A model generated the notes under the pieces. That model did no database searches. It was not told the DNA's origin and saw nothing but the letters and a program-made list of their open reading frames with translations. A program made the position numbers and the translations under genes. From a virus (taxonomy: Duplodnaviria > Caudoviricetes): DNA of 46,401 bases. Positions 2,215 through 46,401 of this stretch are shown piece by piece. Numbering within the stretch: the stretch's first letter is position 1; every line of letters starts with the position of its first letter. The DNA is taken from the IMG/VR virus record IMGVR_UViG_3300025030_000180, positions 1 to 46,401 of that record; one strand, written 5' to 3'.

Positions 2215-3468
2215 TCACCACACCACGTGGGAAGTTTTGCAGAAAATTTTACCGGCGGCTCCGTACCACCAGGCGACGAAATCAAACGTTGAAACATTTG
2301 TCGTCCCTGGGCCGGGGGAAGAATCATTCCCCCAGTCGCACCAGTCCCCCACGCTATCATTGGTGCCTGTCCCGAATGTCACGGTATCGTTGTCTGACAT
2401 TTTGACGTGGACCCACCGGAATTTCGTCCCGGTACGGGGGGTGAAAATCAACCGCATTGCGCTGTCATTGGTGTCGGCGCAATGGTAGTAATGTGATATC
2501 GAGGCGTCCACGGATTCGTTGCCGTGGCAGTTACCCATGTCCACCGGTTCGTCCAGGTCGTACCCCCCCACCAGGTACGCCTCACCAGATTTCACGTTCG
2601 CCGAGTCGTTGAAATTCGCCTGGCTCGTAAAAGTCTTGCCCCCGGTAAAGGCCTGCGCCGATCCGGTCAGGTGCCGGGTGTCGTTGCCGATATGGCTGTC
2701 TAGGTTCGCGTGGGTGTAAGCCCCGGCCCCGCCCAGGGATTGGTGGACTATGGAACTGTCATTGCTCGTGAGGATATCACCGGTCAAGGTGACACCGACG
2801 CCGGCGGTAAGATTGGTTTCGGTGCTGATATCCACGCACCCGGTACAAGTCAAACCGCTCGAATCGTCCACCCGACCGGAATCGTTGACGTCATAAGTCG
2901 ATTTGCGCATGGAGTCATTGACTGTCAAACTGGATGGTACCGCCGTGCGGCCGCCAGCGCCGACCAGAATATTCGTGCTTGTCAGAACAGAAGGTGAACG
3001 GACTGTATCGTTGACAGAAAGACTTGACGCCCCGACAACCACCCCGCCGCGGCCCACCATTACCAGATTATTCGCGAAATTGCTGTCATTGGTGACGGTG
3101 CCTGTGCCGGCCACCGAGCCCCATAGCGGTACTGTTGAGTCGTTGCCGTCAGACACGATAAACTTGCCATTCGTCCCAGCCGATTCCCCCCAAGAGGTCA
3201 GGCCGGAAAATGGAAAAGTGAACGGCGGTGAAACGCAATTCAGGCCGTCATTGCCGCATATAGTCCGGACGTTCAGGTTGCCGGATGAGTCGTTAAATCG
3301 AACGAGCGGACTGCTTCCCAACACTCCGGAGTCGTTAAACTGAATGGCTCCATCCCCACCTGTCCCACCGGGAATTCCTGAGCCTGACGACCCGCCCAAG
3401 ATCATCGGGCCGGCAGTGGCAAGAACCGGAAGCAGCAGAAATAAAATGCAAGCGATTGTCTTTTTCAT
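2215..3468 (-). CDS. Signal-peptide-bearing Gly/Ser/Thr-rich fibre-like protein with 14 N-D-S/T motifs
   Basis: MKKTIACILFLLLPVLATA signal; GGDGAIQFNDSG, KSTYDVNDSGRVD, THANLDSHI and QAFTGGKTF segments typical of phage fibres. Confidence 0.7.
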   Translation of the reverse strand: MKKTIACILFLLLPVLATAGPMILGGSSGSGIPGGTGGDGAIQFNDSGVLGSSPLVRFNDSSGNLNVRTICGNDGLNCVSPPFTFPFSGLTSWGESAGTNGKFIVSDGNDSTVPLWGSVAGTGTVTNDSNFANNLVMVGRGGVVVGASSLSVNDTVRSPSVLTSTNILVGAGGRTAVPSSLTVNDSMRKSTYDVNDSGRVDDSSGLTCTGCVDISTETNLTAGVGVTLTGDILTSNDSSIVHQSLGGAGAYTHANLDSHIGNDTRHLTGSAQAFTGGKTFTSQANFNDSANVKSGEAYLVGGYDLDEPVDMGNCHGNESVDASISHYYHCADTNDSAMRLIFTPRTGTKFRWVHVKMSDNDTVTFGTGTNDSVGDWCDWGNDSSPGPGTTNVSTFDFVAWWYGAAGKIFCKTSHVVW

Positions 3469-3905: not shown

Positions 3906-6900
3906 CTACCGGGATAACTTGTTGTACTCGGTGACATATTTTTTCTTCACTTCGGCAATCTTCTGGGCGATTCTCTCTTCCCTCGCCTTGTCGTTTTTCT
4001 TTTGCGCCAGCTTCAATGTCTTGTTCAAAAGAGAAACTTGCTTGTCAGTCTGCCGATATGCGCCGGCAAGTCTGTATAATGGATCTCTGATAATTTCCCT
4101 CTTGCCTGCCGGGTCAGCATCCTTGAATCTCTTCAGCAGCAATTCTACCTTTTCGCTTTTCTCCCTGTACAATTTGGAATCACCATAGCTCGAATTGGCG
4201 CCGTACATCTTCCGGATGAACGGAGTTTTTTCTGCAGGAAGCCCGTTTTCTGAGAACATAGCAACCGGGAGGGAAAATATATCCTTGGCGAACCGTCCGG
4301 CTGATCCGGTCACAGTCTCGACAAGCATTTCGACTGTTTCAGGGGAAACGTCAATGGCGCCCTTCTCGAACTTGTCTCCACCGGTCAGCCTGTTCAGTCC
4401 TTGCACCCCGGCCTTGATGATGGGATTTACCGACTTGAAATACCGTTCGCTGTCCGGCTTCGGGTCGAACGGATTGGTGGCCGGCATCAGGTCCCCGCCA
4501 TGCCAAGCCTTATTCTCGGCCACCTGGACTACCGGGCGCATAAGCGTCGGCGTGAAGGTCTGCGCCACCGTGGCGGCCTGGATCGGGTTGAATGTGCCGG
4601 CCAAAGCCGTGGCGAAATTTACCGCCGCTTCGGTCTTATCATTTCCACGCCAGGCTGATGCCATTTCATTGCCAAGAACAAAAAAAACATTGTACCCGTA
4701 GGGCATGGGGATTTTAAAGTAGTCGCCCTTTGACCCCGGAATCATGAAAATCATATTCCGCTCGAACAGGGACGGCTTTTCGTGCTTCAGCTTATCGTAG
4801 TATGATTCACCGTCATCATCGTCTCCGCCCATCATCACGCCAAGGACATTGGTCAGCGCCCCGAGCCCGACAATGCCACCAGCAATTTTCCGCACGGTAG
4901 GACTTTTCACCAGATTCTTGATCATGGTGACGTTGCCCTGAATACCGGCGTTGGCGAACATGACGATTGAATTGAGGAACGGCCCGACCGTCCCATGCTT
5001 CGTGAAGTCTACCGTCAAGCCTTTCGCCGTCTGGGCGGCCTTGTTCTTTTCCACACCAGCCTCGACAAGTGCCTTGTAGGTGGCAAGCCTGACACCATTT
5101 TCGACTGATATGCTCGCCTTGCCGATAATTTCGGTGTATTTTCTCCACGTTGCCCGTGCGGGGTGCTTGCCTTCTTGCGTCTCAAGTTCCTTCTGCAGTT
5201 CCTTGGCAAGTTCCTGGACATTCTCGTATCCGGATCTCCAAGAAATTTTACCACCGTGCTCGGAATAGTCGCGGTGCCATTGCGCCATTTCGGACGAATA
5301 ATCCCCGTGCTCTGCCTGGTAAATTCCCCTGATCACCGTCGGCAGCGACTTGACGATTGCCCATTTCATGTTCTTCGCTTCAGTGGCCGTCAGGTGGATC
5401 GTGGCAGTTTGCAGATCTTTGATGAAGTTCGACATCAAGAACTCAGGCGCGGCCACGGTGTTCAAGGCCGCCATGATGCGAACTGCGTATCTCGACGCCC
5501 TGGTGATCGGGCCAAGGTCATTCGCCTTGTAATTTATCGCGGCCATCCACCGCAACATCGGCTTGTTGTCTTTCGGAACGCTGACGATGTAGACCTTGCC
5601 GTCAACTTTGACCTTCGTTTCGTTTTCCGACAGGGACAGGCTCATGTCCTGGTAATACCTGACATTCCCTTCCTTGTCGCGGTACGGCTTCTTTTCGCGT
5701 TCGACAATGGACCACTTCGATTCATCCGGGTTTTCCTTCACCATCTCGTAAAGCGCCCGGCCAGCTTCAAGGTTGTACTTCCTGCTGATGGCGGCCTGGT
5801 AGCGGTCAATGACGTGGGCGAAGATGTCAACAACTCCCTTGGTCGATCCAGAGGCCATTTTGATCGGGCTTGCCAGCGGACCGGTGCCAGGCTTGCCGGT
5901 TGGCTGGCGGTTATCTTCCATGTCCTCACGGTAAAGCGGAACGTGGAACTCGTAAGTGCCGCTTATCGCCCGGTATTCATCCTCGGTGATCTCTCCGGCC
6001 TCAAAGTTAGTTTCAAGCGCCTGCTCGTTTATGGCTCTCAGTCTTCTGGTGGCCTCGAATATCGGACTTCCAGCCTTATGGCTTGCGACCACCTCGGCAG
6101 CCTGCTCGTCGGTCATTCCGGAGAGACGGCCCTTCACATCGTTCCATTTCTCCGCGACCTTCACGCGAGCGGCAAGGCGGTCACGCTTGTTGTCGATCCG
6201 GTCTTGATGATACTGCCTGGTCTTGTCCTCGATGTCGTCGCGGACATCAAGAGCGTCCTGGTCTGCGTCGATTTCGGCGGCCTGTTGCCTTTGCGTTCTG
6301 ATTTCCTTTTCTGAAATTTCATCCATCATGCCCACGTAGTTGTCGCGGCGCTCGTTAAGCGTCTGCTGATCCATGACGAACTCGGTGTTGACGTCGAACA
6401 ATCTCTTGGCGTATGGCCCCTGTTCTTTCTCGGTCATCTGCGCCACAAGGGCGTCGATGTACTGCCGGGCATTGACTCGCCGCATTTGTAGGTTGCGCTC
6501 AGGTGCATGTTGCGCCCAGGCCAGGCGCTCAAGGTCCGGGATGGTGATCTTGTTGTCAGCAAGGAACTTCAGCAGGGGCTTGAGTACATCCCGGTCGAAC
6601 ACTTCAATTTCGCTTGCCGTTTTCGTGCCGACTAATCCCCGGAGCAAGGCATAATCCCTCGTCACCGGTTGTGGCCCGACTTCGCGCTGCACACGCTCAA
6701 TCGCTATGTCTTTGTCCCAAAGGTACGTTCCTACCTGCTCATAAAGCTCTGGGGCGTTTTGGAGTATTCCCATCGGGCGAGGAGTGGCCCCGGTCGCTTC
6801 GTGGTATTCTGCCGTGCTATTCAGTCGGGCAGCTCCGGCGATATCACCGGCCAGCAGGGCGGCGAGAATCGGGTCTGACTCCTTGGAGAAAAGTGGAGCC

Positions 6901-34006: not shown

Positions 34007-34288
34007 ATGACTACCGAACAAGAGAAAATCAACGCCACCACCACCCTGAACCAACTTTGTGACACCCTGAACGAAATCAGCGACGAGGTTAGAGAGAATG
34101 TCTGGATTGACCAGGTTGTTGTTGACACCTGCAACCTGCCGACGTTCGGCGGGGTTGACCCGCAAAACACCTCTGAGGTGTGGAGCTGGGACGAAAAGTG
34201 CGTTTTGGTCGCGGACGGTAGTCGGTGGAGTATTGCCGACCGCTGCGCATGTGGCGAGGCTGATTTTCATTGCCGGTGCGAAGGTTGA
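34007..34288 (+). CDS. Hypothetical protein
   Basis: GAGGAG RBS; LPTFGG.DP..T.EVWSWDE..VL motif. Confidence 0.7.
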   Translation: MTTEQEKINATTTLNQLCDTLNEISDEVRENVWIDQVVVDTCNLPTFGGVDPQNTSEVWSWDEKCVLVADGSRWSIADRCACGEADFHCRCEG

Positions 34289-34476
34289 GCCGGGGCGGAG
34301 CACAGCCGGGGAGCGGGCGAAAGCCCGCCGCCCCTGGCATGAAACGAATAACTAAGGGGGTCAGGCTGCCTGAGTGGGTTTGGGCCTGGCTGGACGAACA
34401 AAACGACCCACGTGGAACGGTGCTTGAAAATGCCCTACTGAAGGTGCATAAACTCAAGCCTCCCACGGCAGGGTAA
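34285..34476 (+). CDS. Small DNA-binding protein (RGG.R.G.GRK motif plus ribbon-helix-helix-like)
   Basis: TTG start overlapping the upstream TGA; RGGAQPGSGRKP..KGVRLPEWVWAWL. Confidence 0.6.
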   Translation: MSRGGAQPGSGRKPAAPGMKRITKGVRLPEWVWAWLDEQNDPRGTVLENALLKVHKLKPPTAG

Positions 34477-34497
34477 CGTCTGAATTAAGGGGCGCTG
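34475..34497 (-). mobile_element. Orphan attC right arm (L'-R')
   Basis: 23-bp exact reverse complement of 43220-43242. Confidence 0.6.
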
Positions 34498-38182: not shown

Positions 38183-38863
38183 TTAAAACTCCGGTTGTAT
38201 TTTTCTGAACATATCGACATGGGCCGCATCCCGGCAGATTAACTCGATTCCGTCATATTTTTTCCTGTCTTTGTTCTCCCCTTGATGGAATGGCGAGTTT
38301 TTGCACCCCGTAACAGCTTCTTTTAGGTCTGCAACCGAATATCCATCTTTCAACCTGGCCCGGATCAATCTTTCCCTGGAAGAGTCCAGTTTTGATTTTT
38401 GGTGCTTCAACTCTTCTTTCCAAAAGTTGAAAACTTCTTCAACATCTTTCTTTTGTATAGTTTCTTTCTTTTCTTTTGTGTCCATCACTTTTGATAACAG
38501 TTTGTTATCACTTTTGATAACAACGGTTGCTTTTTTGATAACAGGTTGCTTTTTTGATAACAGCAACCATTCCGAATAATCCTTGTTAAATCGGTATGTT
38601 GGAATCTTTGTGTTATCACTTTTGATAACAAGTTGCTTTTCTGATAACCATTTTATGGCCCTGGAAACATTTCCCTTCTTTAATCCGGTCGCCGAACAGA
38701 ACTGGCCGTTTGATATTTGATCTTCACTTTTTTTAAACCCATACGTTTTTCTGAGGATGTAATCGAGGCATTGCCTTTGCTCCCCAGGTATGCGGAATTT
38801 GCAAAGGGCATCCAGGATCTCGTTGGCAATCATCGTGTAACCATTTTCGAGCTGCGGCGTCAT
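38183..38863 (-). CDS. Phage replication initiator (lambda O-like N-terminus)
   Basis: LENGYTMIANEILDAL..ILRKTYGF.K..D.IS..QF..TG; internal iterons; adjacent to helicase. Confidence 0.85.
   Translation of the reverse strand: MTPQLENGYTMIANEILDALCKFRIPGEQRQCLDYILRKTYGFKKSEDQISNGQFCSATGLKKGNVSRAIKWLSEKQLVIKSDNTKIPTYRFNKDYSEWLLLSKKQPVIKKATVVIKSDNKLLSKVMDTKEKKETIQKKDVEEVFNFWKEELKHQKSKLDSSRERLIRARLKDGYSVADLKEAVTGCKNSPFHQGENKDRKKYDGIELICRDAAHVDMFRKIQPEF
38485..38649. repeat. Replication origin iterons
   Basis: TTTTGATAACA at 38489, 38512, 38533, 38552 and 38620 plus a variant at 38639; two GTTATCACTTTTGATAAC palindromic units. Confidence 0.8.
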
Positions 38864-39988: not shown

Positions 39989-40031
39989 TTAAAAACCTTT
40001 TCTGTTATAAATTTAAGCTTCATTCCAACGC

Positions 40032-40253
40032 CTACCATCCTCCGCCCTCATTCGGTATCGCAGCAGACCCGACAATATAGCCCTGGTCGATGTTCCCTCT
40101 TTTCCCCTCGGCCATTTTCCCGTTTGGCAGTAATTTGACGATTGCAATTTCGACTGATCCGCTGGCGTACAAACAAAGCGACTTCGGCCATCGAGAGGCC
40201 AAATCGTTTAATTCCTTTATTGCTTTTTTCTCTTTCTCGGTGCATTGTACCAT
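40032..40253 (-). CDS. Hypothetical protein
   Basis: GGAG RBS; L..LA.RWPKSL.L..SG..IPN.GG.W. Confidence 0.6.
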   Translation of the reverse strand: MVQCTEKEKKAIKELNDLASRWPKSLCLYASGSVEIAIVKLLPNGKMAEGKRGNIDQGYIVGSAAIPNEGGGW

Positions 40254-40256
40254 TAT

Positions 40257-40532
40257 TCATAATTCTCCGAGCCTCCTGCATGTTTCCTCGTGTAAAAATT
40301 TGTCAGGGTATTTTTCCTGGAATTCCTTCGAGCCTTGCCCATGGCGAGATATCGGCCCGTCCTTGTGGCACAAATTACACAACGGCGCCACTTCCGAGTG
40401 CCGCCTTTGCCCCGCGCCGCAGTTGTGTCGGCAATGGTGGATGTGGATATTGTAAGGCGATCCACAAGCCAGGCATCCTATGAGTTCAACGATTCGCGCA
40501 AATCTGCGCTTCTGGGATGCTGTCGGTCTCAT
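40257..40532 (-). CDS. Ref/DUF968-like HNH-type nuclease
   Basis: GCLACG..IHH.R..GAGQR..V.PLC..CH; follows ninB. Confidence 0.7.
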   Translation of the reverse strand: MRPTASQKRRFARIVELIGCLACGSPYNIHIHHCRHNCGAGQRRHSEVAPLCNLCHKDGPISRHGQGSKEFQEKYPDKFLHEETCRRLGEL

Positions 40533-40978
40533 CTGCCAACGTCCTCCGGATGAGGCAAATAAATTGCCATGCCGATGGCGAAACGGTTGACCTCGGTCAT
40601 CAGTTCGGCCATCTGTTTGACTTTTAGCCTGGTGATCGATGTTTCACGGGCGACCCACCGTCTAAGCCTATCCTTCCTGCAATCATCCCACACCTGCTCC
40701 ACGTCCCGCCACATCTCGGCGTATTCGGCGTCATCCCTGACCAGGATCGGGACCAAAAAAAGGCGCTTCATTTCTTCGTGGGCCTCGTCTTTTGAGTACC
40801 CAAGCTCCGCGCCGATGATGCCGCACCAGGTAAAATACAGGCCGTCTTGGTCCCTGGTGCGGCTCTTACCCTTTTCTTTGATCACAACCTCATGAACCGG
40901 ATCTACCGGAAGGGCGGCGACGATTGCCCCGGCCCTGGCTATCAGTTCTGGAGTCCGGCAGATTATTTTGTGATTCAT
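40529..40978 (-). CDS. ninB: NinB/Orf family recombination protein
   Basis: V.IKE..RTRDQ..Y..W..I..G..H..K..FL..SIT.L.V.QM.E. Confidence 0.8.
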   Translation of the reverse strand: MNHKIICRTPELIARAGAIVAALPVDPVHEVVIKEKGKSRTRDQDGLYFTWCGIIGAELGYSKDEAHEEMKRLFLVPILVRDDAEYAEMWRDVEQVWDDCRKDRLRRWVARETSITRLKVKQMAELMTEVNRFAIGMAIYLPHPEDVGR

Positions 40979-41008
40979 TTTTCTATATTTATTCCGTTAT
41001 TTGTGTCT

Positions 41009-41053
41009 GTAACGGATATTCCGGAAGATTTTCCGGATAATAAGTTGTTGTGC
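41009..41053 (+). mobile_element. Putative attI-like/primary insertion site of the cassette array
   Basis: CCGGATAATAAGTT-GTTGTGC; the GTTGTGCC core is complementary to R'' GGCACAAC of the first attC; no full attC hairpin. Confidence 0.45.
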
Positions 41054-41054
41054 C

Positions 41055-41681
41055 TCAAACTACTCGGAACGAAACAGCCCACACCCACGGGTCTGCATCC
41101 CATGAGCCAGGGCCGTTGATTGACTCCCACAGGGTTTTGAATCGTTCCTGCGCATAGCATGGGGTAATCGACGTTGTTCCGCCTACCCCCTCGGCTATCG
41201 CATCACCAACGGAGATAGCGGTCAGGCGTTCAAGGCGGACATCTACTACCTCAAGGGTAATTCTGCTGTCAGTTCGGCGCATGTGGATTGACGGCCGTTT
41301 CCGGTAATGCCTACGGTTGGTGTCCTCTGGGGTCTCGGTGGCCGAGTAGTAAATACGGTCGTTGTTGTCCACGCATTCCCACCAGGATTCGCGGACGTAG
41401 AGGTGGTCACCCTTGCGGCCGCATGGGCACTTTACCACCTTGTCCCAGTTTTTACCGTAAAGGGCTATGCCCCCGATATCGTCCACGTAATCAGGTTGAG
41501 GGGACAATATACGTCTGGTCTGCGTCTTGTCCCCGGCCAGGATAGCGCGGACCATCGGCCCCGAGAATAGAACGGGGTGGCTGGCACAACCAGGCGCTAC
41601 ACCTGAAAACGTGGTGCTGGCGATTTCGGCACTTGCCGCCTTGGGTGTTTCCGTCATTTCAATCATAGTTTCGTTTCCCAT
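41055..41681 (-). CDS. ASCH/PUA-like phage protein (cassette 1)
   Basis: PVLFSGPMVRAILAGDKTQTRR, GD.LYVRE.W, RPSIHM..SRITLEV..ERL..IS..DA.AEG and PWVW. Confidence 0.8.
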   Translation of the reverse strand: MGNETMIEMTETPKAASAEIASTTFSGVAPGCASHPVLFSGPMVRAILAGDKTQTRRILSPQPDYVDDIGGIALYGKNWDKVVKCPCGRKGDHLYVRESWWECVDNNDRIYYSATETPEDTNRRHYRKRPSIHMRRTDSRITLEVVDVRLERLTAISVGDAIAEGVGGTTSITPCYAQERFKTLWESINGPGSWDADPWVWAVSFRVV

Positions 41682-41707
41682 GTTTCAGGTGAGCTAAAAC
41701 GTTAGCT
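41584..41707 (+). mobile_element. attC site 1 (124 bp)
   Basis: GCACAAC..GCT[A]CACCTGAAA[A]C.TGG / CCATGTTTCAGGTGAGC..GTTAGCT. Confidence 0.8.
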
Positions 41708-41923
41708 GACCACCAATAACCATTGCGGGTTTATCCCAACCTCGCAATCAAAACCCATATCAACAGAGAAATGCGAATCATTGCCCGGAAGAGATGAATA
41801 GTCGGCGGTGACAATGCCTGACTTACCGTCAAGGCTATCCCCATAGCATTCGAGCCAGTAGTTACGCTTTTTCATCCAATCACTTGCCCCATGCAAACAC
41901 AAAACACGATCTCCTATTTTCAT
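41702..41923 (-). CDS. Hypothetical protein (cassette 2)
   Basis: GGAGG RBS; stop TAA lies inside the GTTA core site. Confidence 0.7.
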   Translation of the reverse strand: MKIGDRVLCLHGASDWMKKRNYWLECYGDSLDGKSGIVTADYSSLPGNDSHFSVDMGFDCEVGINPQWLLVVS

Positions 41924-41952
41924 GATATTCCTCCAAAAGAAGTAAAAGAATC

Positions 41953-42038
41953 AGCTAACAATAAAATCAAGCTGACGGGTTGACGCTCCCGGTTTTTGCT
42001 GCAAGGCTTTAGGCCCGCAGCTTATTTAGGCGTTAGCC
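41953..42038 (+). mobile_element. attC site 2 (86 bp)
   Basis: AGCTAAC..AAT[C]AAGCTG[A]CGGG / CCCGCAGCTTATT..GTTAGCC, with canonical extrahelical bases. Confidence 0.9.
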
Positions 42039-42045
42039 CCCGCGT

Positions 42046-43155
42046 TCATCCCTTAATGTTCAGCAGTGGCTTGACGTGCGCAACAACCTCAACCATCTCG
42101 GTTTGTTGGCGCATCACATCAAAGATGCTCTTGTACGCAAAGGGCGATTCATCGAGCGTCTCTGCTGTTACCAGCGCAACCACTCCGCTCATTGTTCCGG
42201 TGAATTGCTCCATGTTCAAAGTGCGCTGCGCTTCCTTGCGCCCAAGCACACGGCCTGCGCCGTGTGAGCTTGACCACAAAGCGTCTGCATTGCCCTTGCC
42301 GCGTACGATAAAGCTGCCGTCCCGCATATTGCCGGGTATCACGCCCATCATCCCGGCCTCGGCGTGTGTAGCCCCCTTGCGGTGAATCCACAGCCCGTCT
42401 TTCAGTTCCGCGTGGTTGTGGTTTCGGTTTATCAGCGCATCCCAATCCCCAGCACCTGAACAGTTCGCTGAAAGCACGGTCTCAATTCGGCGCATGATTT
42501 CGCGCCGATTCTCAAGCGCCAGTTCAAGGCAAAAACCCAAGTCAGCGATGTAGTTAATCCCGTTTGTTTCGTTCACGTCAAAACCTAAATGACCCTCCCG
42601 CGCTTTCCCATCACCACTTGCCAACCGCATGTAGTGCGATGCAGCCGCGTGGCCTATGCCGCGTGATCCTGAATGAATCACAACCCAAACCTTTCCGGTT
42701 TCGTCTGCTCCAACTTCCGCGAAGTGGTTGCCCCCTCCCAAACTCCCTATCTGGCGTAGCCCGTTCTTGTCGAAAATCTCCTGCATCTTCGCAGTACGCG
42801 GCAAGCCGCTGTAATCCCATTCGGTGTTTTTCTGGTTGTGCGAAAACCCGACCGGAACGGCCTTATAAATCCCGTCGAAGATGGCCTTTGCTTTTTCCTT
42901 CACCTCGCCCGCCTCGAAGGTAGTTGGCAGGGCGCACATCCCGCACCCGATGTCATAGCCCACCCATGAAGGCAGTATCACTCCATCGGTTGCAACCACT
43001 GCGCCGATGGGCAACGAGTACCCCGCGTGCGCGTCAGGCATTAGCGCTCCACGAACAACAAAGTCCTGTTGCATGGCGCTTTCAAACTGGTTCAATGCCT
43101 CCTGTTCAAGCACTTCCGCAAATATCTTGTAAGGCTTGTCGGTATTGATGTTCAT
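42046..43155 (-). CDS. rtcB: RtcB family RNA 3'-phosphate/5'-OH ligase (cassette 3)
   Basis: MPDAH.G..PIG, VGYDIGCG, GSLGGGNHF, HSGSRG, HNH, HRKGAT and SSSHGAGR motifs all intact. Confidence 0.95.
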   Translation of the reverse strand: MNINTDKPYKIFAEVLEQEALNQFESAMQQDFVVRGALMPDAHAGYSLPIGAVVATDGVILPSWVGYDIGCGMCALPTTFEAGEVKEKAKAIFDGIYKAVPVGFSHNQKNTEWDYSGLPRTAKMQEIFDKNGLRQIGSLGGGNHFAEVGADETGKVWVVIHSGSRGIGHAAASHYMRLASGDGKAREGHLGFDVNETNGINYIADLGFCLELALENRREIMRRIETVLSANCSGAGDWDALINRNHNHAELKDGLWIHRKGATHAEAGMMGVIPGNMRDGSFIVRGKGNADALWSSSHGAGRVLGRKEAQRTLNMEQFTGTMSGVVALVTAETLDESPFAYKSIFDVMRQQTEMVEVVAHVKPLLNIKG

Positions 43156-43182
43156 AGTTTTTTACTCCGTAGTTAAGATGGG

Positions 43183-43246
43183 GGCTAACCCATCATTCAA
43201 GAGGGACGCTGCAAAAGCGCAGCGCCCCTTAATTCAGACGTTGGAA
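43183..43246 (+). mobile_element. attC site 3 (64 bp, VCR-like arms)
   Basis: GGCTAAC..ATT[C]AAG[A]GGG[A]CGCTGC / GCAGCGCCCCTTAAT..GTTGGAA. Confidence 0.92.
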
Positions 43247-43254
43247 AGCAGAGG

Positions 43255-43298
43255 CCCCATGGTCGGCATATCGGGCAAAGAACATGCCGACCATGGGG
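43255..43298. other. Perfect 15-bp inverted repeat at the 3' end of cassette 4 genes
   Basis: CCCCATGGTCGGCAT-14 nt-ATGCCGACCATGGGG. Confidence 0.7.
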
Positions 43299-43306
43299 AT
43301 TCAAAA

Positions 43307-43444
43307 TCACGCGGTGGCTTTTATCCCGAAAACTTTTTCAAGCAAAAGGCATCCCATTTGCTTCAAGGTGGCAAATTTGTTGCCACACTTGAAGCCGCCC
43401 CAAAAGACGCCGATGGTGAATAAAATCAAGATCAAGTTTATCAT
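43307..43444 (-). CDS. 45-aa membrane protein (cassette 4, second gene)
   Basis: GAGG RBS just after the vWA stop; MINLILILFTIGVFWGGFKCG. Confidence 0.55.
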   Translation of the reverse strand: MINLILILFTIGVFWGGFKCGNKFATLKQMGCLLLEKVFGIKATA

Positions 43445-43456
43445 TTTATTGGCCTC

Positions 43457-44065
43457 TTAATCATTGATGGCGGCAATAATCAAATCAGCCGTTGTCGGGA
43501 AGGCTTCGGCCTCTTCCATCGTTTTTGCGTCAACGATGTCGAACTTAGCTGCAGAGAGGTCATCATCCAGGCTCTTGAGATAGGCGGCAGCACCAGCGTC
43601 GCGGCCAACTTGGACGAAGAGGATGGTCAACGCATCATCGGTTTCCTGTTTGTGGGAGGCCTCAACAATAACTTTCGCAGCAGCAGCCTTGTCATCCGGC
43701 GTACCATCGGTGAAGACGATGATGAAGTCCTTCTTTTCTGACTTCCCGGCAAGTTTCAGCGCAGCCGTCAGAGCCTCGGCCAAAGGCGTTGACCCGCTGG
43801 GGCGGTTAGCGGCAAACACGTCTTTGATTTTTTGGACGTTTACACCATCTTCGGAGACGACACTTGTTCCGCTGAACAGCACCAGGCCAAGACCATCGCT
43901 ATCAAACTTTTCAACGTCCCGGCAAAGGGCAACGGCGCTTTCCTGGACAGCATCCCATCTGGAGCGGCCACCAGGCATATCGGTTTCACCCATTGATCCG
44001 GACTTGTCGATAACAACAACGAAATCATACTCACTCAACAATGCTTCCTTTTGATTCTGTTCCAT
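43457..44065 (-). CDS. vWA domain protein (cassette 4)
   Basis: GAGGT RBS before MEQNQ; MIDAS motif DKSGSM, GSTPLA.AL, FTDG.PD and FVQVG.D. Confidence 0.9.
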   Translation of the reverse strand: MEQNQKEALLSEYDFVVVIDKSGSMGETDMPGGRSRWDAVQESAVALCRDVEKFDSDGLGLVLFSGTSVVSEDGVNVQKIKDVFAANRPSGSTPLAEALTAALKLAGKSEKKDFIIVFTDGTPDDKAAAAKVIVEASHKQETDDALTILFVQVGRDAGAAAYLKSLDDDLSAAKFDIVDAKTMEEAEAFPTTADLIIAAIND

Positions 44066-44145
44066 TTCCAATACCTCGTATTGAGATTTATCAAAGTTTA
44101 TGGGCCAATCCCATAAACGTAGTGCGTTACTTTCGTGGTCTTGCT

Positions 44146-44236
44146 TTCCAACAAGCGCATACACTCGGAACGCCGGAACGTTCCGATTTTTCTCTGCTAA
44201 TTCAGTGGCGGCGTCCGGTGATGCTTGGCGTTATAT
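44146..44236 (+). mobile_element. attC site 4 (91 bp)
   Basis: TTCCAAC..GCAT[A]CAC[T]CGGA[A]CGCCG / CGGCGTCCGGTGATGC..GTTATAT. Confidence 0.85.
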
Positions 44237-44283: not shown

Positions 44284-45051
44284 TCATGCACTCAGGTCTT
44301 TATTCCAATTTGGGCAGGTTGATATCTGCTTGCATTGTTCGGCCAGGCATTCGGCAATAGACATCATCGTCCCTGCCCGTTCCTCGCCTTCTGGGCATGG
44401 GTGGCGGGGCGGTTCGGATAACGGCTCGGATAAGGCCTTTGCTGCAAGCCTCTTTTCTGTCGCCGTGAAGTGCTGGCGGCAGTCGATAAGGTTCTTACCG
44501 GCCAGCTTGTTCCATACCGGCGCTTTTTGGGCTTTCAGGGCGGCAAGGTCAGCGGAATTTTTGCAGGCGTCAATTTCCTTCTTTGCCGTGGCGAGGATGG
44601 TGGTTTCTTCCGGCGATTCGGCCTTGGTGGCCTTGGCAGGTGTCTTTTCAGGTTCTTTACCTTTGCCGCTGCCGGCATTGCCGTCATCATCCTCGGGGGC
44701 GATGCCTACAATAGCGGAAAGGGCATACCTCCTGAGATAAGTTATCGTTGACCCGATGGCCTGAACGTCTCCCTTGGCCGGTGTAGCTGATACTCTGTCG
44801 CTGATCCATTCCCCACTTGCGTGAGAAAGAAGAGTTTCGACGCTTACCATCCCATCGAAAACGGTGGGCGATTGGATGACAGCCAGGCCATTTTCAGACA
44901 ACGGTGCCCGGCATGCGTCCCATACGGAGGAAAGGTCGGCATATTTTGACTTAAAAAAGGGGTTATCAGAATCCTTAACAGCCCCTTGTATCTGCCCTTG
45001 AGCCTTTGCCAGCGCCGCCGATAATTCTCCTATCCTTTCCGATTTGTCCAT
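44284..45051 (-). CDS. erf: ERF family single-strand annealing protein
   Basis: ALAKAQ..KDSDNPFFKSKYADL, LSHASGEW and GSTITYLRRYAL..GIA.EDDDG. Confidence 0.93.
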   Translation of the reverse strand: MDKSERIGELSAALAKAQGQIQGAVKDSDNPFFKSKYADLSSVWDACRAPLSENGLAVIQSPTVFDGMVSVETLLSHASGEWISDRVSATPAKGDVQAIGSTITYLRRYALSAIVGIAPEDDDGNAGSGKGKEPEKTPAKATKAESPEETTILATAKKEIDACKNSADLAALKAQKAPVWNKLAGKNLIDCRQHFTATEKRLAAKALSEPLSEPPRHPCPEGEERAGTMMSIAECLAEQCKQISTCPNWNKDLSA

Positions 45052-46025: not shown

Positions 46026-46050
46026 GTCGTCACCTCCAGGTTAAAATTTG

Positions 46051-46401
46051 TTAAAAAGTAACAGAAATGCCGAATTTACCGGCTATCGAAATAAATAATT
46101 TCTTTTCGAGCACGTACTGCAGGGCGTAATCGTTTCTCTTCACGGCCTCAAGACAGACGGCCTCGGTCTGCTCCTTGACGTACTGCAGGGCGTAACCGTC
46201 ACTCTTCACGGCCTCAAGACAGACGGCCTCGGTCTGCTCCTTGACGTACTGCAGGGCGTCACCGTTTCTCTTCACGGCCTCAAGACAGACGGCCTCGGTC
46301 TGCTCCTTGACGTACTGCAGGGCGTAACCGTTTCTCTTCACGGCCTCAAGACAGACGGCCTCGGTCTGCTCCTTGACGTACTGCAGGGCGTCACCGTTTC
46401 T
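46051..46401 (-). CDS. DUF4116-like repeat protein (5' end outside window)
   Basis: 22-aa repeats ALQYVKEQTEAVCLEAVKRNGY. Confidence 0.8.
   Translation of the reverse strand, partial: RNGDALQYVKEQTEAVCLEAVKRNGYALQYVKEQTEAVCLEAVKRNGDALQYVKEQTEAVCLEAVKSDGYALQYVKEQTEAVCLEAVKRNDYALQYVLEKKLFISIAGKFGISVTF
46112..46401. repeat. Near-identical 66-bp coding tandem repeat (at least 4.4 units)
   Basis: ACGTACTGCAGGGCGT unit starts at 46112, 46178, 46244, 46310 and 46376. Confidence 0.95.

What the first reader, a model, noticed from the sequence alone, without database searches (positions are those of the whole stretch)
41047..44236. Phage-borne integron cassette array with every gene reversed to read from the phage early operon
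Seen: four attC sites with correct R''/L''/L'/R' layout and extrahelical bases on the plus strand. Each cassette's left core matches its own R'': GTTGTGCC/GGCACAAC, GTTAGCTGA/TCAGCTAAC, GTTAGCCCCC/GGGGGCTAAC and GTTGGAAAGCA/TGCTTTCCAAC. Known: that pattern is the footprint of IntI-mediated insertion of circular cassettes, and cassette ORFs normally point toward their attC on the top strand. Here all five ORFs are on the bottom strand, co-directional with erf and ninB, and at least one (ASCH-like) is a typical phage gene. Inference: a phage-specific, integrase-less cassette pool that uses host integron machinery to shuffle accessory genes and would be antisense to Pc if it landed in a host integron.
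Basis: partly seen in the sequence, partly recalled or inferred. Interest (0 to 1): 0.92.

Follow-up and report, generated by a model that had tools for sequence, protein, structure and literature searches.

The report
Phage integron platform with reversed cassettes
A groundwater phage carries four integron-type gene cassettes whose genes face backwards, behind a conserved site that is likely their insertion point but with no integrase beside it, and this backwards layout is the rule in phage DNA and the exception in bacteria, which points to a likely phage-specific pool of swappable genes.

Summary
Observation confirmed. A covariance model trained on attC sites from bacterial genome records finds exactly the four sites; cores match over 8-11 nt; all five genes lie on the recombining (bottom) strand. 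New here: the left boundary (40992-41049) is an attI-like site. Two other contigs carry it at 88% over 58 bp, ending at G|TT, each with a different first cassette. Reversal is general: 140 of 151 core-matched cassettes in viral contigs are reversed, 137 of 201 in bacterial genomes are forward. Cassettes shared between phages start and end at G|TT, so the chemistry is classical. No integrase lies in this 70%-complete contig; 2 of 50 other viral records encode one, as the last gene of the cassette operon. Phage attC clusters are published (Qi 2023); three of its four figured clusters are reversed by my check, unremarked in the text I read. The scan noted reversed phage arrays before on other DNA (nine notes). 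Source of the integrase, recombination of these sites and the reason for reversal are untested. New variant of a known kind; interest 0.72.

The parts
40529..40978 (-). ninB-like gene, first fixed gene downstream of the array, in the position where intI lies in phages that have one
   Evidence: phrog_72 E 1e-14; layout comparison with G021/G031
40992..41049 (+). attI-like site: inverted repeat 41020-41037, L box 41035-41041 ending in AAT, 5-bp spacer, crossover G|TT at 41047/41048
   Evidence: 88% over 58 bp to L368 and L369, homology ends at G|TT, three different first cassettes; not hit by the attC model; AAT-N5-GTT also in 3 of 4 bacterial attI candidates
41048..41701 (.). cassette 1 (654 bp)
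   Evidence: 8-nt core match
41055..41681 (-). phrog_874 gene (ASCH-like cluster); start codon lies inside attC1, and the R'' core sits where homologues have their start Met
   Evidence: phrog_874 E 3e-59; Atlas; Met 4 residues before the motif in 13 of 24 homologues
41584..41707 (+). attC1 (124 bp)
   Evidence: E 8e-6
41702..42032 (.). cassette 2 (331 bp)
   Evidence: 9-nt core match
41702..41923 (-). 73-aa gene of unknown function; its stop codon is the TTA of attC1's R' box
   Evidence: nearest Atlas clusters 100% viral, score 0.92
41953..42038 (+). attC2 (86 bp)
   Evidence: E 2e-7
42033..43240 (.). cassette 3 (1208 bp)
   Evidence: 10-nt core match; same core and 3' end in another phage, L058/L367
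42046..43155 (-). RtcB RNA ligase
   Evidence: PF01139 E 1e-83
43183..43246 (+). attC3 (64 bp), 80-85% identical to attC sites of Methylophilaceae chromosomal arrays
   Evidence: E 4e-9
43241..44230 (.). cassette 4 (990 bp)
   Evidence: 11-nt core match
43255..43298 (-). strong hairpin followed by a T-rich tail, terminator-like, at the 3' end of cassette 4's genes
   Evidence: z -7.4
43307..43444 (-). 45-aa small hydrophobic ORF
   Evidence: no family
43457..44065 (-). vWA-domain protein of a conserved family (67-82% identity among best hits)
   Evidence: PF13519
44146..44236 (+). attC4 (91 bp)
   Evidence: E 0.033
44284..45051 (-). erf, last fixed gene upstream of the array
   Evidence: PF04404 E 1e-25

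Best explanation
This is a phage-borne integron platform of mirror polarity: a 58-bp site that is likely an attI, followed by four attC cassettes whose five genes are coded on the recombining strand, likely shuffled by an integron integrase made elsewhere. Shown: the sites, the matched cores, the strand of the genes, three different first cassettes behind the same left site, and cassettes shared between phages that begin and end at G|TT and carry the attC at the 5' end of their gene. Inferred: IntI folds and cuts the bottom strand as in bacteria, excises circles and inserts them at G|TT 41047/8; the genes are read from the phage early transcript erf > vWA > rtcB > 73 aa > phrog_874 > ninB > O > dnaB, so a new cassette joins the promoter-distal end and does not push older ones away from the promoter. 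The attC travels as the gene's 5' leader and can supply its start codon (cassette 1); the neighbouring core often supplies its stop (cassette 2; 18 of 58 viral sites). The integrase comes in trans: host IntI about 55%, a phage-encoded IntI (missing 30% of this genome, or a co-infecting phage) about 45%. Likely benefit of the reversal (inferred): host cassettes, many of them anti-phage, would land antisense and silent in the phage site, and phage cassettes, many of them candidate counter-defence genes, would land antisense to Pc in the host, which keeps two pools apart on one chemistry. In phages that keep intI, reversal also puts cassettes and intI in one operon.
For: attC model hits only these four sites, on the coding strand. 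Cores 8-11 nt. L368 and L369 are 99% identical for all 176 bases held up to G|TT and unrelated right after; each first cassette matches the R'' of its next attC. The window shares only the 58-bp site with them, not the flanking genes. Survey with one attC pattern: gene 5' of the site reversed in 56 of 63 viral loci (4 forward, 3 unclear), forward in 47 of 62 bacterial loci (8 reversed, 7 unclear) (Fisher p 7e-19); by family hits 20 of 62 reverse frames vs 1 of 62 forward frames in viral loci, 18 of 61 forward vs 3 of 59 reverse in bacterial loci; per core-matched cassette 140 R/4 F/7 unclear vs 25 R/137 F/39 unclear. Shared cassettes: homology 301-638 for a cassette spanning 302-635, and 299-1408 for 302-1400. 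G021 and G031: reversed cassettes, then attI, then a full IntI on the same strand. PH101_attC1, which recombined with attI1 through its bottom strand (PMC9892861, section 3.4), lies in a reversed array. Cargo labels among the 20 viral hits: 6 DNA methyltransferases, 1 Mom-like, 1 Lar-like, 1 RNA ligase.
Against: No IntI or tyrosine recombinase in the 46 kb held, nor in 0 of 8 viral records at least 90% complete. No cognate integrase found for the attI-like site: no match in 401 genomes of one bacterial phylum, none in IMG/VR, no similarity above chance to the upstream DNA of 34 intI loci; non-cognate attI/IntI pairs are generally inefficient (PMC8946536, passage). No joint that skips a cassette in 4 runs, which are contigs only. 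L368 and L369 are not proven to be phages: one methyltransferase hit among 8 ORFs scanned, no IMG/VR relative. Not all phage arrays are reversed: TJE1 is forward. attC1 folds poorly. The survey rests on one pattern, on 63 of 132 and 62 of 157 loci (the rest had short flanks or were duplicates), on my own gene calls, and some bacterial loci overlap on one contig. The firewall benefit is untested; 4 forward cassettes occur in viral loci.
Confidence: 0.74

Rival explanations
1. Frozen relic: an integron once complete in an ancestor lost intI; the array no longer moves by site-specific recombination, and any change now comes from the phage's own homologous recombination (Erf, NinB) at attC repeats.
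For: No integrase in the contig. A decayed half-attC with a cassette-like gene lies at 34339-34497. Near-identical attC bodies sit on different genes in L368 and L369 (91 bp at 98.9%, 86 bp at 95%). The array lies between erf and ninB.
Against: All four cores are still perfect; L368 and L369, 99% identical upstream, differ exactly at G|TT, and neither has intI beside the site; the window's four attC sites are unlike each other (no repeat family among them).
Confidence: 0.13
2. The genes are not really reversed: a variant integrase uses the other strand, so each attC belongs to the gene upstream of it in the usual gene-then-attC order.
For: Seen from the coding strand the layout looks classical, with stop codons in the core (18 of 58); core matches alone cannot tell the two models apart.
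Against: In four pairwise comparisons of shared cassettes the attC at the gene's 5' end travels with the gene and homology stops at G|TT; the fixed left site ends at G|TT on the + strand; extrahelical G/T lie on the coding strand; PH101 sites recombined better as bottom strand.
Confidence: 0.04
3. Host integron DNA, mis-assembled into the contig or captured once as a block.
For: attC3 is 80-85% like Methylophilaceae attC sites; the assembly graph breaks at attC3, which another contig shares; IMG/VR does hold host integrons (L124 is a class 1 integron).
Against: One unitig runs from 39695 (phage genes) to 43233, the next from 43207 into erf, at like depth, 14.9 and 16.9; a second assembly is identical over 40448-43549 (L371; may be the same sample); host cassettes are forward; cargo relatives lie outside cassettes in other phages.
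Confidence: 0.03
4. The hairpins are kept mainly as expression elements (leaders, processing or attenuation sites) between early genes, and mobility is incidental.
For: attC1 encodes the first 32 residues of gene 1; several phage attC sites are read through.
Against: Matched cores, extrahelical bases and a conserved attI-like site have no role in RNA structure; attC1, 2 and 4 are not much more stable than shuffles.
Confidence: 0.06

Closest known systems
Phage-borne CALINs and integrons (Qi, Rajabal, Ghaly, Tetu, Gillings 2023, PMC9892861; read: parts of methods and results, section 3.4 whole, word searches, supplement 1 part 1)
   Same: Clusters of attC sites in phage genomes without a neighbouring intI; methyltransferase cargo; five of six tested sites recombined with attI1.
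   Different: The text I read does not remark on gene strand relative to attC and calls TJE1 and PH101 typical; by my check PH101, MW202573 and (one weak site) P12002L are reversed and TJE1 is forward. It reports no stand-alone phage attI heading a reversed array. Its figures and Dryad file I could not see.
Classical bacterial integron (intI, attI, Pc, forward cassettes; Cury 2016 PMC4889954, passages; review PMC8946536, passages)
   Same: attC anatomy, bottom-strand chemistry, G|TT crossover, insertion at one fixed site at the array's head, attC travelling with its cassette.
   Different: Genes point towards attI; no Pc role; no intI beside the site; the newest cassette is farthest from the promoter; attC is the gene's 5' leader; where phages keep intI it is co-directional with the cassette genes.
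CALIN (cluster of attC sites lacking an integrase; Cury 2016)
   Same: At least two same-strand attC sites, no intI nearby; IntegronFinder would probably label it so (not run).
   Different: Has a conserved attI-like head that receives different cassettes; reversed genes of phage type.
Anti-phage integron cassettes (Kieffer et al., 10.1101/2024.07.02.601719, abstract; 10.1101/2024.07.02.601686, search listing)
   Same: Same recombination sites used to stock genes of the phage-host conflict.
   Different: Those are forward cassettes of the host side; the phage pool is reversed and rich in candidate counter-defence genes.

Membership tests
attC site | R''-5 bp-L''...L'-5/6 bp-R' layout with paired arms | tested here: met
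attC site | Extrahelical bases on one strand that define the bottom strand | tested here: met
   G (attC2, 3) or T (attC1, 4) in L'' plus further T/A on the - strand
attC site | Hit by an attC covariance model | tested here: met
   own model R1, 4 of 4 sites, attC4 weak; IntegronFinder's model not available
attC site | Recombined by IntI as folded bottom strand | not testable with these tools
   shown in print only for other phage sites, one of which I find reversed
Integron gene cassette | Left core complementary to own R'' | tested here: met
   8-11 nt, 4 of 4
Integron gene cassette | Moves as a unit bounded by G|TT | tested here: met
   RtcB cassette end shared with L367 up to the core; other phage cassettes; no excised circle seen
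Integron gene cassette | Gene on the top strand, pointing to its attC (usual rule) | tested here: not met
   5 of 5 genes on the bottom strand
Complete integron | intI next to the array | tested here: not met
   0 hits for TIGR02249 and PF00589 in a 70%-complete contig; ninB lies in that place
Complete integron | attI at the head of the array | tested here: inconclusive
   position, 58-bp conservation ending at G|TT, three first cassettes and AAT-N5-GTT fit; no cognate IntI found, binding untested
Complete integron | Pc driving the cassette genes from the attI side | tested here: not met
   genes point towards the site; no + strand promoter-like match left of the array within 40000-41047 (consensus scan only)
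CALIN | Two or more same-strand attC sites and no intI nearby | tested here: met

The most novel reading that the evidence does not exclude
Phages run their own integron world: stand-alone attI sites planted in early operons, a mirror-polarity cassette pool built from phage genes (many of them counter-defence), and integrases borrowed in trans, so that host defence cassettes and phage counter-defence cassettes share one chemistry but silence each other on exchange. Because free and cassette forms of the same phage gene coexist (RtcB, phrog_874, vWA) and one attC body sits on different genes, these arrays would make the open question of how cassettes are first made directly testable.
Probability: 0.45. 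Interest if true: 0.88.

Novelty: new variant of a known kind. Interest (0 to 1): 0.72.

Why it matters
Integrons are treated as bacterial devices with forward cassettes, now known to stock anti-phage genes. A phage-side version with opposite polarity, its own insertion site and candidate counter-defence cargo would add site-specific shuffling to the ways phages swap accessory genes, give a ready screen for new anti-defence proteins (genes between reversed attC sites), and offer cases in which the free gene, the cassette form and the donor attC can all be compared, which bears on the unsolved origin of cassettes. Tools that label such loci 'CALIN' miss both the polarity and the attI-like site.

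Tried and rejected
No close relative of this phage's ninB in IMG/VR, so the erf-ninB interval could not be compared. Rfam gave nothing meaningful. The left site as a mini-attC: rejected, no L''/L' fit and no model hit. The left site as protein-coding conservation: an open frame crosses it in both lineages, but 4 of the 5 changed codons are non-synonymous (read). Host of the attI-like site: 0 of 401 genomes of one phylum, 0 in IMG/VR with the strict pattern, 16 chance matches with a loose one, none followed by an attC, only chance matches in 50,697 GenBank phages, no match beside 34 intI genes. L368/L369 could not be extended or searched for intI (one search found no relative). Excised circles: only contigs were available, no cassette-skipping joint; a second, narrower look at those runs could not be made, so other arrays behind this site in the same community remain unexamined. 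Replication argument: repeats like origin iterons lie in the O-like gene (38480-38650); a fork from there would use the bottom strand as leading template, the low-excision setting of Loot 2017 (PMC5371416, abstract), so replication does not explain reversal here; phage replication mode unknown. Length-only ORF calls were too noisy and were replaced by a codon model and family hits. Literature: ten searches found no paper on reversed phage cassettes or a phage attI without intI; the library lacks most subscription papers.
Full report
SETTING. The window is a whole 46,401-base virus record, linear, 70% complete by CheckV, held by groundwater metagenome runs of one study. It encodes terminase, portal, major head protein and a lambda-like early operon on the - strand: erf, the array, ninB, small genes, an O-like initiator and DnaB. 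No integron integrase and no tyrosine recombinase were found in it.

Four attC sites lie at 41584-41707, 41953-42038, 43183-43246 and 44146-44236 with the + strand as top strand. A covariance model built from 51 attC bottom strands from bacterial genome records (48 from apparent host arrays, 3 from a prophage in L246) returns four hits at E<=1 in the whole window, exactly these, all on the - strand (E 4e-9 to 0.033). Each cassette's left core is complementary to its own R'' over 8, 9, 10 and 11 nt. The five genes (phrog_874, 73 aa, RtcB, 45 aa, vWA) are on the - strand, so the recombining strand is the coding strand. Gene 1 starts inside attC1, and the core sits where 13 of 24 homologues have their start Met. 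Gene 2 stops on the TTA of the neighbouring R' box. Mis-assembly is unlikely: one unitig joins phage genes at 39695 to attC3, the next joins attC3 to erf at like depth, and a second assembly is identical over 40448-43549 (L371; possibly the same sample).

THE LEFT BOUNDARY IS AN attI-LIKE SITE. A metagenome scan with the sequence left of the first core found 4 stretches: the window's own contig, L371, and two other contigs, L368 and L369. These share 58 bases with the window (40992-41049, 88%), and the likeness ends at the G|TT crossover; the genes to the left are unrelated to ninB. L368 and L369 are 99% identical over the 176 bases held up to G|TT and differ completely after it; each first cassette matches the R'' of its next attC, and their arrays are reversed too. 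So one site is seen with three different first cassettes. It is not an attC. Its last elements, AAT-5 bp-GTT, recur in 3 of the 4 bacterial attI candidates that I could define among 32 bacterial intI loci; one of them (L422) also has an inverted repeat running into the L box. No cognate integrase was found, and L368/L369 are phage-like by gene layout and by a cassette gene shared with this window but not proven phages.

REVERSAL IS THE RULE IN PHAGE DNA. One attC pattern was scanned through IMG/VR (132 loci returned) and GTDB genomes (157 loci). Of those with enough flank and not duplicated, the gene on the R'' side was reversed in 56 of 63 viral loci (4 forward, 3 unclear) and forward in 47 of 62 bacterial loci (8 reversed, 7 unclear) by a codon model of my own. 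Independent of that model, family hits fell on 20 of 62 reverse frames and 1 of 62 forward frames in viral loci (PHROGs) and on 18 of 61 forward and 3 of 59 reverse frames in bacterial loci (Pfam; the libraries differ). Counting cassettes between two attC sites with a core match of at least 6 nt: 140 reversed, 4 forward, 7 unclear in 45 viral loci; 137 forward, 25 reversed, 39 unclear in 42 bacterial loci. One forward 'viral' locus is a class 1 integron (L124), one reversed 'bacterial' locus a prophage (L246). Limits: one pattern, partial scans, overlapping bacterial loci.

THE CHEMISTRY IS CLASSICAL. If a variant integrase used the other strand, each attC would travel with the gene upstream of it. 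It does not: a 334-bp cassette found in three phages and a 1.1-kb cassette found in two share DNA from the left G|TT through the attC at the gene's 5' end to the right G|TT, with different neighbours. The window's RtcB cassette has a relative in another phage (87% identity) with the same core and 3' end, and different DNA beyond the core. Among the four clusters figured by Qi et al. 2023 (PMC9892861), PH101 (4 sites), MW202573 (5 hits) and P12002L (1 weak hit) have the bottom strand on the coding strand, while TJE1 (3 sites) is forward. PH101_attC1 recombined with attI1 through its bottom strand in that paper (section 3.4). The passages I read do not remark on the reversal.

WHERE THE INTEGRASE IS. 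2 of 50 viral records with such sites encode a full IntI; 0 of the 8 at least 90% complete do. In both, the order on one strand is cassette genes, attI, intI: intI keeps its usual place relative to attI, and the reversed genes make the whole a single operon. In the window ninB stands in intI's place. Most phage arrays therefore need IntI in trans. IntI is common in at least one plausible host phylum (68 of 201 genomes), but the host is unknown.

CARGO AND ORIGIN. The genes are phage genes: relatives of gene 1 in 55 viral loci had no attC directly 5' of the gene at my threshold; RtcB was in a reversed cassette in 1 of 14 loci, its closest relative (91%) lying free beside a tRNA gene; vWA was free in the loci mapped (3 of 4, the fourth a duplicate). 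Among 20 identified viral cassette genes, 6 are DNA methyltransferases, 1 Mom-like, 1 Lar-like, 1 RNA ligase. That RtcB could repair tRNA cut by host nucleases is recalled knowledge of RNA-repair counter-defence, not tested. Near-identical attC bodies on different genes in L368/L369 and a start codon replaced by the core in cassette 1 are traces of how cassettes may be made.

MECHANISM. Shown: sites, cores, strand, three first cassettes at one site, G|TT-bounded movement in relatives. Inferred: IntI in trans inserts circles at 41047/8; the early transcript reads the array from the oldest cassette to the newest and on into ninB and the replication genes (the hairpin at 43255-43298 would need read-through or a further promoter); polarity keeps host and phage pools apart, since either would land antisense in the other's site. 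Host cassettes do encode phage defence (10.1101/2024.07.02.601719, abstract). Confidence in the whole reading 0.74; rivals are a frozen relic (0.13), an expression role (0.06), other-strand chemistry (0.04), host DNA (0.03).

NOVELTY. Phage attC clusters are published. Ten literature searches found no paper on the reversed polarity or on a phage attI without intI; figures, the Dryad file of Qi et al. and most subscription papers were out of reach. Nine earlier notes of this scan describe reversed phage arrays on other DNA; my survey preceded them, and they are not independent support. What this window adds is the stand-alone attI-like site with three different first cassettes. New variant of a known kind; interest 0.72.

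Noticed in passing
window 34007-34497 (+ strand genes): Relic of a second reversed cassette: a 93-aa gene and a 45-aa gene end at a GGGTAAC core followed by only the right half of an attC, 23 nt identical to attC3; the 45-aa gene is 63% identical to a gene in an intact cassette of L368.
   Followed up: partly
L368 439-529 and 2227-2312; L369 (reverse) 4128-4218 and 3300-3385: Near-identical attC bodies (98.9% and 95%) joined to unrelated genes in two related arrays: possible trace of recent cassette making.
   Followed up: partly
L367 8880-11965 (G050): The RtcB cassette of another phage has grown to 3.1 kb: tRNA-Pro, HNH-like ORFs, a split rtcB and a LAGLIDADG-like ORF inside the same cores.
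   Followed up: partly
L365 (G021) and L366 (G031): Phage records with a complete mirror-polarity integron: reversed cassettes, attI, intact intI on one strand; in G021 a serine-integrase-like gene follows, and diversity-generating-retroelement-like ORFs precede the array.
   Followed up: partly
window 38480-38650: Repeats inside the O-like gene, like origin iterons.
   Followed up: no
window 43255-43298: Very stable hairpin with T-rich tail inside cassette 4, in the path of the early transcript.
   Followed up: no
window 43195-43244: Another contig in the same runs shares this part of attC3 with different flanks (table 7).
   Followed up: no
window 46046-46401: 66-bp tandem repeats coding a DUF4116 protein; the contig ends inside them.
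   Followed up: no
L246 3998-5566: Prophage in a Rhodanobacter genome with five attC sites, reversed genes, erf and an integrase-like gene: a cultured host for tests.
   Followed up: partly
L079, L092, L103, L127: Four forward cassettes in viral loci; L092 has one inside an otherwise reversed array of nine sites, a possible captured host cassette.
   Followed up: no
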